A stretch of 9,297 nt of DNA from a virus (IMGVR_UViG_2740892369_000003), one strand, 5' to 3'; positions 6,261 through 6,755 are shown, counted from the stretch's first letter. Notes: generated by a model from the letters alone, not told the origin. Numbers and translations are program-made.

Positions 6261-6755
6261 TTAATAATTTGTCAGCGGCGGTACATATACAGGCTTAGGG
6301 TCTGGCGCTCTATACATCCGGTATTCATTCTTACAGCGAGGACATGAATGCACAAAGAACCCATTAGATTTTATAGTAACCGTGCTTGGTTGAAGTATCG
6401 ATATTTTATGTTCGCCGAAGCAATGTGCACAAAGGTTATGCTGCTGAATAGAAGGATCGGAATGACTCTTAGGTCGATACACGACAGAACCACCTTCAGT
6501 TGTATGAAGTTCATAATTCTCAGCTTGCACAACAAACATCTTGATTTTTCTATTTTCATCTCGAAGCTTCATTGCGATCTCCTTCTCGGCCTGATAAAGG
6601 CCAGAGAGCTCCGCATTAAGCATCTGTAAGTCAGTTATTCTTTGGTGTAGATCACCAATAGCTTTAGCGATAACAGCATCGTCTCTGGTTTCTTTTATTG
6701 TCTTCAGCAGATCATAAGCCTGTTTCGCGGCAGTTATACCAGATAACACATCCAT
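6261..6755 (-). CDS. Coiled-coil / zinc-ribbon protein (164 aa), transcribed against the PL operon
   Basis: ORF track 6261..6755 (-). AAGAGAG lies about 8 nt upstream. The N-terminal half looks helical. The C-terminus has a CxxC-x25-CxxC arrangement (CAHC...CPRC). AT-rich. No confident family assignment. Confidence 0.65.
   Translation of the reverse strand: MDVLSGITAAKQAYDLLKTIKETRDDAVIAKAIGDLHQRITDLQMLNAELSGLYQAEKEIAMKLRDENRKIKMFVVQAENYELHTTEGGSVVYRPKSHSDPSIQQHNLCAHCFGEHKISILQPSTVTIKSNGFFVHSCPRCKNEYRMYRAPDPKPVYVPPLTNY

What the first reader, a model, noticed from the sequence alone, without database searches (positions are those of the whole stretch)
6261..6755. Coiled-coil / zinc-ribbon gene oriented against PL transcription
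This is the only gene in the early-left region on the opposite strand. Antiterminated PL transcription would read across it in antisense, so it most likely has its own promoter in 6756-6955 and is expressed in the lysogen and silenced during lytic growth. The product pairs a helical N-terminal half with a C-terminal CxxC-x25-CxxC zinc ribbon. It loosely resembles DksA/TraR-type coiled-coil zinc-finger proteins, but the spacing differs from the CxxC-x17-CxxC I recall, so I do not assign it.
Basis: partly seen in the sequence, partly recalled or inferred. Interest (0 to 1): 0.7.

Follow-up and report, generated by a model that had tools for sequence, protein, structure and literature searches.

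The report
Rip1-type pore-forming defence gene in sieB slot
The reverse-oriented gene is a divergent member of the recently described Rip1 family of prophage proteins, which kill an infected cell by forming a membrane pore around ring-shaped phage assembly proteins; it sits in the classic sieB position of a lambdoid Stx prophage and keeps the sieB promoter and sas antisense-RNA control region, so it is real and coherent but essentially already explained.

Summary
A 164-aa ORF lies at 6261-6755 on the minus strand. It has a helical N-terminal half and four invariant cysteines, C109/C112 and C138/C141 (CxxC-x25-CxxC). It is the only credible gene running against PL.

It is 99% identical to HK620 hkaP, annotated in 2001 as a "putative superinfection exclusion protein". 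It belongs to the Rip1 family ("ring interacting pore 1", Patel et al., Nature 2026). A profile of its relatives hits PDB 9OOX (phage HK446 Rip1 bound to the T6 small-terminase ring) at E = 9e-18, and that entry is also the top fold match. HK446 rip1 occupies the same slot, convergent with N.

The 125 nt upstream are the P22/lambda sieB control module. By homology to the mapped P22 sieB promoter, the -10 is at 6793-6788 and the transcript starts near 6781. The plus strand 6761-6872 is about 96% identical to the P22 sas antisense RNA.

The DksA/TraR resemblance is not supported.

Verdict: a new member of a known kind, of low to moderate interest. The shared sieB/sas "socket" that carries either SieB or Rip1 cargo is the most interesting by-product.

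The parts
6261..6755 (-). rip1-like gene (hkaP homologue), 164 aa plus stop codon
6519..6755 (-). N-terminal helical, amphipathic half (residues 1-79); by homology the pore-forming part
   Evidence: AF2 helices 2-21 and 25-79. Hydrophobic moment 0.4-0.5 with no hydrophobic TM segment. The role is inferred from the published description of Rip1 (PMC13434031).
6264..6518 (-). C-terminal beta-rich domain (residues 80-164) with four invariant Cys (C109, C112, C138, C141) and the ILQP motif; by homology the part that contacts the phage protein ring
   Evidence: Invariant columns in alignments A1 and A2. The Cys are conserved in HK446 Rip1 and JBD30 gp30. Strands are in the AF2 model. Zinc binding was not tested.
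6788..6818 (-). PsieB-type promoter: -35-like TGTACC 6818-6813, -10 TAAAAT 6793-6788
   Evidence: Aligns column for column with the P22 feature 'sieB promoter' (BK000583 29690-29720). The T-A-A-A-x-T of the -10 is invariant across SieB and Rip1 cargo loci. The generic sigma70 scan did not flag it because the -35 is poor.
6756..6781 (-). Predicted 26-nt 5' UTR. The transcript start is about A6781 (first base of the second ACCCCTACAG repeat); the SD-like AAGAGAG is at 6770-6764
   Evidence: Inferred from homology to the P22 'sieB RNA start site' at 29727, 7 nt after the -10. Sequence. Not measured for this phage.
6761..6872 (+). sas-like antisense RNA region in the PL direction, which probably extends to about 6751 over the start codon. 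It contains SL1 6765-6787, SL2 6800-6824 (loop CUGUAGGGGUACA) and a 3' stem region 6823-6855
   Evidence: 101 of 105 aligned nt are identical to nt 19-127 of the P22 sas RNA read (PMC13397905 Table 2). Stems are supported by compensatory changes, and there is a G.U pair that forms only in the sas sense. No Rfam family matches.
6806..6815 (-). ACCCCTACAG repeat 1, in the SL2 loop and overlapping the -35 region
   Evidence: Invariant. It changes together with repeat 2 in the Klebsiella/Shigella variant module.
6772..6781 (-). ACCCCTACAG repeat 2, at the predicted 5' end of the mRNA
6232..6243 (+). Left copy of the direct repeat GGGGTGAAGAGG flanking the cargo
   Evidence: Eight IMG/VR contigs lack exactly 6244-6776, with an 11-nt overlap at the junction.
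6777..6787 (+). Right copy of the direct repeat GGGGTAAGAGG flanking the cargo (part of SL1 and the transcript-start region)
6206..6220 (-). Terminator-like hairpin downstream of the gene (AGGGGGATATCTCCT followed by TCAGTTTTGA)
   Evidence: Consensus scan only. Weak and untested.
5370..5398 (+). Candidate PL promoter (TTGACC-17-TATCTT), the likely source of the antisense read-through
   Evidence: Consensus scan. Its position matches pL in the HK620 annotation relative to N. Inferred.

Best explanation
The gene encodes a Rip1-family abortive-infection protein. It is a single small protein that acts as both sensor and effector.

Proposed mechanism, with its basis:
- Inferred from P22 sieB homology: in the lysogen the gene is transcribed from its own PsieB-type promoter (-10 at 6793-6788, start about 6781), against the repressed PL operon.
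- Known for the characterised Rip1 proteins, inferred here: the protein is harmless on its own.
- Known for Rip1, inferred here: when a superinfecting phage reaches late gene expression and builds ring-shaped oligomers (small terminase for the E. coli phages studied, portal for the Pseudomonas phages), the C-terminal Cys-rich beta domain docks around the ring. In PDB 9OOX, 12 Rip1 subunits surround an 11-mer T6 small-terminase ring. The N-terminal amphipathic helices then assemble into a membrane pore, which kills the cell before progeny are completed.
- Inferred from the P22 sieB/sas precedent: when the resident prophage itself goes lytic, antiterminated PL transcription runs antisense across the gene. 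It also produces the sas-homologous RNA (6761-6872, + strand), which covers the promoter, the 5' UTR and the ribosome-binding site. This shuts off new Rip1 synthesis, so the phage does not trigger its own defence.

Shown here: the ORF, its architecture, family membership by sequence and by fold, the conserved genomic slot, and homology of the promoter and antisense-RNA module.

Not shown here: expression, the identity of the trigger, pore formation, zinc binding, and sas regulation of this particular cargo.
For: Sequence:
- A profile of 22 homologues hits 9oox_L 'ring interacting pore 1 (Rip1)' at E = 8.7e-18 over residues 16-148.
- BLASTP to HK446 Rip1 gives 28% identity, E = 4e-14. BLASTP to JBD30 gp30 gives 27% identity, E = 1e-16.

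Fold:
- Foldseek finds only 9oox chains below E = 1e-3 (probability 1.00, TM 0.58/0.71).

Context:
- HK446_037 (Rip1) lies convergent with N and against PL, and its record notes similarity to HK620p16, which is hkaP.
- Salmonella and Pantoea prophages have a homologue in the same slot.
- Pseudomonas homologues lie on the opposite strand between gp29 and gp31. That is the small/large terminase slot described for Rip1 and Tab.

Function of the family: the published summary is in PMC13434031 section 8 and PMC12908700.

Promoter and antisense RNA:
- P22 annotation of the sieB promoter and RNA start, with alignments.
- The P22 sas sequence is about 96% identical to the window + strand.
- sieB is stated to be prophage-expressed in P22 (abstract of PMC10461980).

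Cargo survey: the same module precedes SieB (three types) or Rip1-like proteins (two types) in 125 loci.
Against: - Identity to the two characterised Rip1 branches is only 27-28%, so trigger specificity, and even ring sensing, are extrapolated.
- No functional data exist for hkaP itself. The primary paper (Nature 651:1060) could not be read, so the family's properties come from a review and from the PDB title.
- The promoter has a poor -35 and was not found by the generic scan.
- No Esc-like internal product is evident, so the sas logic may differ from that in P22.
- Single-sequence folding of the leader or antisense region is no better than shuffled sequence (z = -0.6 and -0.9).
- PADLOC, Pfam and NCBIfam have no model for the protein, so there is no independent curated assignment.
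Confidence: 0.78

Rival explanations
1. The gene is a functional analogue of SieB, as the HK620 record suggests. On this view it is a prophage exclusion/abortive protein that works by a mechanism unrelated to sensing rings and forming pores, and the Rip1 similarity reflects only a shared scaffold.
For: The HK620 record notes 'putative superinfection exclusion protein'. The gene sits exactly in the sieB slot with the sieB promoter/sas module. Identity to characterised Rip1 proteins is only 27-28%.
Against: Homology to Rip1 spans the full length and includes the four Cys, the Y-x-(L/M)-H-x(7)-VYR segment and the ILQ motif. The fold match is specific. There is no sequence or architectural similarity to SieB: no TM segments, a different PHROG, and no SieB Pfam hit.
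Confidence: 0.1
2. The protein serves the resident phage's own development, for example as an accessory lysis-timing or packaging checkpoint factor that binds the phage's own terminase or portal ring, rather than defending against other phages.
For: Rip1 proteins bind conserved virion-assembly rings. The gene is embedded in phage regulatory circuitry that is tied to the lytic switch.
Against: The gene is dispensable. Eight related contigs lack exactly the cargo. The slot alternatively holds SieB, a bona fide exclusion gene. The orientation and the sas module argue for shut-off during lytic growth, not for use in it. The characterised family members act as defence against other phages.
Confidence: 0.05
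3. The protein is a DksA/TraR-like coiled-coil zinc-finger regulator that binds RNA polymerase.
For: There is only a superficial resemblance: a long helical hairpin plus a C4 motif.
Confidence: 0.02

Closest known systems
Rip1 (ring interacting pore 1): phage HK446 Rip1 (PDB 9OOX, in complex with T6 small terminase) and the P. aeruginosa prophage Rip1 (Patel et al., Nature 2026; 651:1060)
   Same: Both are 164 aa. Both have an N-terminal amphipathic helical half and a C-terminal beta domain with four conserved Cys. Homology is significant by sequence (E = 9e-18 by profile) and by fold. Both are prophage genes on the strand opposite the surrounding operon. HK446 rip1 sits in the identical slot, convergent with N, with a virtually identical upstream promoter/sas module.
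   Different: Identity is only 27-28% to either characterised branch, so this is a separate subfamily (HkaP type) that extends across Escherichia, Salmonella, Yersinia, Serratia, Pantoea, Hafnia and Edwardsiella. The trigger, oligomer stoichiometry and pore activity are untested. Public records call it only 'hypothetical protein'.
SieB / Esc / sas system of phage P22, and lambda SieB
   Same: The genomic slot is the same: between N (gene 24) and ral/cIII, against PL. The promoter is homologous, and so is the sas antisense RNA region. The biological role is the same: a prophage-expressed abortive exclusion that the resident phage must escape.
   Different: The proteins are unrelated. SieB is a membrane protein of 183-193 aa with hydrophobic segments, whereas HkaP is soluble-type, helical and Cys-rich. 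No in-frame Esc-like internal product is evident in hkaP, since the internal Met codons are not conserved.
Tab / anti-Tab (JBD26 gp31/gp30; Patel et al. 2024, PMC10884400)
   Same: [quoted passage not shown] It is also a prophage-expressed defence that acts late on virion assembly components.
   Different: Tab is an unrelated 83-aa protein that blocks tail assembly through the tape measure protein. Self-protection comes from a partner protein (anti-Tab), not from an antisense RNA.
HP0958/CT398-type coiled-coil plus zinc-ribbon proteins; DksA/TraR

Membership tests
Rip1 (ring interacting pore 1) | Significant sequence homology to a characterised Rip1 | tested here: met
   hmmsearch of profile A2 against PDB: 9oox_L E = 8.7e-18, covering residues 16-148. 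BLASTP to HK446 Rip1 E = 4e-14 at 28% identity. BLASTP to JBD30 gp30 E = 1e-16 at 27% identity.
Rip1 (ring interacting pore 1) | Same fold as the solved Rip1 subunit | tested here: met
Rip1 (ring interacting pore 1) | Single small protein with an N-terminal amphipathic helical part and a C-terminal ring-contacting part | tested here: met
   164 aa. Helices at 2-21 and 25-79, then a beta-rich domain. Hydrophobic moment 0.4-0.5 with no TM segment.
Rip1 (ring interacting pore 1) | Prophage-encoded gene, transcribed independently of the surrounding lytic operon | tested here: met
   The gene lies on the opposite strand in the PL operon of a lambdoid Stx1a prophage. It is in the same slot as HK446_037. 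The promoter is homologous to the mapped P22 PsieB. Actual transcription was not measured.
Rip1 (ring interacting pore 1) | Harmless alone; activated by oligomeric rings of phage small terminase or portal | not testable with these tools
   This needs phage challenge, escape mutants and co-expression. It is known for the characterised members only.
Rip1 (ring interacting pore 1) | Forms a 12-subunit ring or pore around the phage protein ring and permeabilises membranes | not testable with these tools
   This needs cryo-EM, liposome leakage or microscopy. It is described for HK446 Rip1 with T6 small terminase.
SieB (P22/lambda superinfection exclusion B) | Sequence homology to SieB (Pfam/PHROG SieB families) | tested here: not met
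   No SieB family appears among the Pfam hits at E <= 1. The PHROG assignment is phrog_1244, 'unknown function'. In the cargo clustering, SieB types and the HkaP type fall into separate clusters.
SieB (P22/lambda superinfection exclusion B) | Hydrophobic membrane-spanning N-terminal region | tested here: not met
   In HkaP the mean hydrophobicity of all 18-residue windows is <= 0.22. The SieB sequences show long hydrophobic runs.
SieB (P22/lambda superinfection exclusion B) | Locus: between N/gene 24 and ral/cIII, against PL, with the PsieB promoter and the sas antisense RNA | tested here: met
   This feature belongs to the locus, not to the protein.
   No PF01258 hit at E <= 1. The spacing is x25.
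DksA/TraR zinc-finger family | DksA-like fold (coiled coil with an acidic tip plus a globular zinc domain) | tested here: not met
Tab (tail assembly blocker) | Homology to JBD26 gp31 (83 aa) with an adjacent anti-Tab gene | tested here: not met
   Tab is described as an 83-residue protein with no similarity to known proteins. The window protein is 164 aa and is homologous to JBD30 gp30, the alternative occupant of that slot. No Tab sequence was compared directly.

The most novel reading that the evidence does not exclude
The PsieB/sas module may be a conserved 'socket' of lambdoid phages into which unrelated abortive-infection effectors are swapped. The survey found three SieB types and at least two Rip1 types, and cargo-less versions exist that were excised between 11-12-nt direct repeats. 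In the Rip1-carrying versions, the sas antisense RNA made from PL may be the phage's self-immunity device. It would switch off the pore-former at the lytic switch, so that the phage's own terminase and portal rings do not trigger it. Recognition would be helped by the duplicated ACCCCUACAG motif: the 5' end of the mRNA is complementary to the loop of sas stem-loop 2. If so, Rip1 self-tolerance in enterobacterial phages would be RNA-based, unlike the protein antidote of the neighbouring Tab system.
Probability: 0.4. Interest if true: 0.55.

Novelty: new member of a known kind. Interest (0 to 1): 0.3.

Why it matters
This turns a widespread "hypothetical protein" into a testable Rip1-type defence gene. 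The exact sequence occurs on at least 1000 public contigs, and the locus is present in 66 of 5426 complete E. coli genomes, including Stx1a-converting phages. A subfamily only 28% identical to the solved Rip1 could reveal which ring features are sensed and how specificity evolves.

The finding that SieB and Rip1 genes share one promoter/antisense-RNA cassette links a 1993 regulatory paradigm (sieB/esc/sas) to a 2026 defence mechanism. It also suggests how such prophages avoid killing themselves. In STEC prophages, such exclusion genes may shape which phages can superinfect or recombine.

Tried and rejected
- Curated libraries. Pfam, PADLOC 2.0 and NCBIfam give no significant hit. These libraries either predate Rip1 or lack a model for it. 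The weak Cas10, SprT zinc-ribbon and SIKE hits were dismissed as noise.
- DksA/TraR. Rejected.
- Zip (JBD24 gp58, a PilZ-binding Sie protein). Considered because of the JBD phage context. It is a different gene at the end of the late operon.
- Tab (JBD26 gp31). It occupies the same slot in Pseudomonas phages but is a different, 83-aa protein.
- Rfam. The whole window gives no family at E <= 1, so sas has no Rfam model.
- Single-sequence folding of the upstream region, either strand. Not better than shuffles. An H-type pseudoknot idea for 6823-6855 was dropped because the CCAC/GTGG stem shows no covariation. Only the GCCUG/CAGGC stem and SL2 do.
- Scans. My first degenerate IMG/VR pattern returned 0 hits because I mis-specified one IUPAC code. 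The genome-contig scan returned only 5 loci.
- Literature. The search for 'hkaP' found nothing relevant. The primary Rip1 paper is not in the held library. The 'Rip1 + sieB' search gave only false matches.
- Esc-like internal start in hkaP. The internal Met codons (M44, M62, M73) are not conserved, so this idea was dropped.
- hkaQ (5868-6230) as an obligatory partner or antidote. Rejected, because it is absent from HK446 and from the Salmonella and Pantoea loci and is retained in cargo-less contigs.

Full report
**What is there.** The window is the immunity and early region of a lambdoid prophage. Positions 5200-7500 are 100% identical to Stx1a-converting phage Stx1a_10051, and 6200-6960 are 100% identical to E. 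coli strain E2865. PR-side genes run on the minus strand: cro-like 3779-4024, cII-like 3391-3756, replication genes 1013-3207. The cI-like repressor (4085-4822) and the PL operon run on the plus strand:
- N, 5593-5865 (PF25694, E = 1e-15)
- an hkaQ-like gene, 5868-6230
- phrog_1636, 6956-7426
- a P22 gp17-like gene, 7516-7881
- an Erf-like ORF, 8455-9090

Against this flow lies one solid ORF, 6261-6755 on the minus strand, 164 aa. AlphaFold2 with 22 homologues (mean pLDDT 81) predicts helices at 2-21 and 25-79, followed by a beta-rich domain. The cysteines are C109, C112, C138 and C141, which is CxxC-x25-CxxC. They are invariant, as is an I-L-(Q)-P motif, across homologues down to 45% identity.

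**What it is.** The protein is 99.4% identical to HK620 HkaP. It belongs to phrog_1244, of unknown function. Pfam, PADLOC and NCBIfam have no model for it.

Pairwise identity is 28% to HK446 Rip1 (E = 4e-14) and 27% to Pseudomonas phage JBD30 gp30 (E = 1e-16). The four cysteines and the Y-x-(L/M)-H...VYR segment are conserved in both. The family is large: 2131 representatives at 50% clustering reach E <= 1e-3, nearly all of 140-190 aa.

**What Rip1 does (from the literature, not tested here).** I could not read the primary paper, Patel et al., Nature 651:1060 (2026). A 2026 review (PMC13434031) and a meeting report (PMC12908700) summarise it as follows:
- It is not toxic alone.
- On superinfection it disrupts the inner membrane.
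- Escape mutations map to the portal in Pseudomonas phages and to the small terminase in E. coli phages.
- Twelve Rip1 subunits ring an 11-mer small-terminase ring. The C-terminal half makes the contacts, and the N-terminal amphipathic helices form a pore that releases dye from liposomes.

The JBD30, DMS3 and D3112 homologues of the window protein lie on the opposite strand in exactly that slot. In JBD26 the same slot holds Tab.

**Genomic slot.** HK446 rip1 (HK446_037) lies immediately after N, convergent with it and against PL. Its record even notes similarity to HK620p16, which is hkaP. HkaP-type genes in Salmonella and Pantoea prophages sit in the same place. In phage lambda and in P22 this position is occupied by sieB:
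- Lambda: sieB 34482-35036 (+), N complement 35037-35438.
- P22: sieB 29758-30336, gene 24 complement 30357-30659.

**Promoter and antisense RNA.** The roughly 125 nt upstream of the start codon are far more conserved than the proteins. They are almost identical between the window and HK446, although the proteins share only 28% identity. They are recognisably conserved in Salmonella, Yersinia, Pantoea, lambda and P22.

The curated P22 record marks a sieB promoter at 29690-29720 and the sieB RNA start at 29727. Transferred through the alignment, these give for the window:
- a -35-like TGTACC at 6818-6813
- a -10 TAAAAT at 6793-6788 (T-A-A-A-x-T is invariant in all loci)
- a start at about A6781
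- a 26-nt leader with an SD-like AAGAGAG

A generic sigma70 scan missed this promoter because the -35 is poor.

The reverse complement of the same module is the P22 sas antisense RNA. The 127-nt sas read published in PMC13397905 aligns to the window + strand 6761-6872 with 101 of 105 aligned positions identical. In P22, sas is detected only in infected cells. According to the reviews it switches translation of sieB mRNA so that P22 escapes its own SieB.

Stem-loop 2 of sas (window 6800-6824) and the GCCUG/CAGGC stem (6832-6855) carry compensatory changes. One G.U pair is possible only in the sas sense.

**Cargo exchange.** Among 125 loci containing the module core, the first downstream ORF is one of the following:

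| Cargo type | Loci |
|---|---|
| P22-type SieB | 54 |
| Lambda-type SieB | 31 |
| HkaP-type Rip1 homologue | 16 |
| HK446-type Rip1 | 16 |
| Third SieB-like membrane protein | 8 |

Eight viral contigs lack precisely 6244-6776. That segment is the cargo plus its leader. The deletion lies between the direct repeats GGGGTGAAGAGG (6232-6243) and GGGGTAAGAGG (6777-6787). The gene is therefore an exchangeable, dispensable moron in a fixed regulatory socket.

**Mechanism proposed.**
- Shown: the ORF, its conservation, family membership by sequence and by fold, the slot, and homology of the promoter and sas region.
- Inferred from homologues: prophage expression from PsieB; harmlessness until a superinfecting phage makes terminase or portal rings; ring docking by the Cys-rich domain; pore formation by the N-terminal helices; abortive death.
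- Inferred from the P22 precedent and the geometry: shut-off in the phage's own lytic cycle, by PL read-through and by sas-type antisense pairing over the promoter, leader and ribosome-binding site.

**Rivals.** A SieB-like but non-Rip1 mechanism (0.1) is hard to reconcile with the full-length homology. A role in the phage's own development (0.05) conflicts with the gene's dispensability and with the shut-off design. The DksA/TraR idea (0.02) failed every test.

**Novelty and score.** The family and its mechanism were published in 2026. The HK446 member from the identical slot is the solved structure. This exact gene has been annotated as a putative exclusion gene since 2001. The finding is therefore a new, divergent member of a known kind, and I score its interest at about 0.3.

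The modestly novel by-product is that Rip1 genes of enterobacterial lambdoid phages ride in the sieB/sas cassette. This suggests RNA-based self-immunity. I found no held paper that links Rip1 with sieB or sas, but I could not check the primary paper.

**Caveats.** There are no expression or phenotype data for this gene. Zinc binding is assumed from the four Cys. The 5' end of a sas-like RNA in this phage is unknown. A TATAAAT on the + strand overlapping the start codon (6755-6761) could be a -10, but it lacks a good -35. In P22 the RNA may instead derive from PL transcripts.

Noticed in passing
window 6756-6880 (both strands); P22 L019:1201-1337; lambda L017:574-710: The region upstream of the gene is the P22/lambda sieB promoter plus sas antisense-RNA module. 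It is conserved at the DNA level even where the downstream protein is only 28% identical (HK446) or unrelated (SieB). Rfam has no family for it.
   Followed up: yes
window 6232-6243 and 6777-6787; loci L030, L037, L042, L062, L079, L097, L123, L137: Direct repeats GGGGT(G)AAGAGG flank the cargo. Eight IMG/VR contigs lack exactly 6244-6776 with an 11-nt junction overlap. This leaves an 'empty' PsieB/sas module next to hkaQ, which suggests cassette-like gain or loss of the defence gene.
   Followed up: partly
L021:1510-1640 (Klebsiella phage Kp4884-1), L008/L009:3723-3850, L156, L157, L207, L232: A variant of the module lies upstream of other Rip1-like genes. Both ACCCCTACAG repeats are changed in parallel to (T/A)CCCCAAC(A/G)A, and the SL2 stem is replaced by different but still complementary sequences. 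This is consistent with an interaction between the mRNA 5' end and the sas SL2 loop. It rests on few independent lineages.
   Followed up: partly
window 6825-6856 (minus strand TGCCTGTCTTTTAACCACATCAGGCTCGGTGG); SfV L020:1512-1545; loci L144-L263: The distal 32 nt of the module are conserved in many more prophages. In those loci the element reads as a sigma70 promoter (TTCACC-16-TATNNT), followed by a hairpin, an SD and at least 18 unrelated small cargo ORFs (61-163 aa). In the sieB/rip1 version the -10 position is degenerate. Compensatory changes in GCCTG/CAGGC suggest a hairpin whose role (in DNA or in RNA) is unexplained.
   Followed up: partly
window 4863-5159 (+): A 98-aa ORF lies directly downstream of cI, in the rexAB/hkaS position. 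It has a hydrophobic N-terminus and a coiled C-terminal half (phrog_18389, unknown function). It is followed by a strong bidirectional terminator at 5164-5183. It is probably co-transcribed with the repressor in the lysogen, so it is another candidate prophage-expressed accessory or defence gene.
   Followed up: no
window 7516-7881 (+): This is a homologue of P22 gene 17 (PF17420 'Superinfection exclusion gene product 17', E = 3e-53; phrog_1510) in the PL operon. In P22 this gene allows growth on Fels-2 lysogens, so it would be a counter-defence gene close to the defence gene.
   Followed up: no
window 5784-6230 (+): The listed 148-aa ORF overlaps the end of N. The PHROG match (phrog_7374) covers residues 29-148, so the real start is probably ATG 5868 (120 aa, matching HK620 hkaQ). 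Its function is unknown. It is not linked to hkaP: it is absent from HK446 and from the Salmonella and Pantoea loci, and it is retained in cargo-less contigs.
   Followed up: partly
window 6642-6665 (+), inside the gene: The HK620 annotation places the PL terminator tL1 here (hairpin TGGTG-TAGAT-CACCA), inside and antisense to hkaP. If it is functional, PL read-through across the gene, and hence production of the sas region, would depend on N antitermination.
   Followed up: no
window 6755-6761 (+): TATAAAT on the plus strand overlaps the complement of the start codon. It is also present in HK446. It could be a -10 element for an independent sas-like transcript, but there is no convincing -35 and no equivalent in P22.
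   Followed up: no
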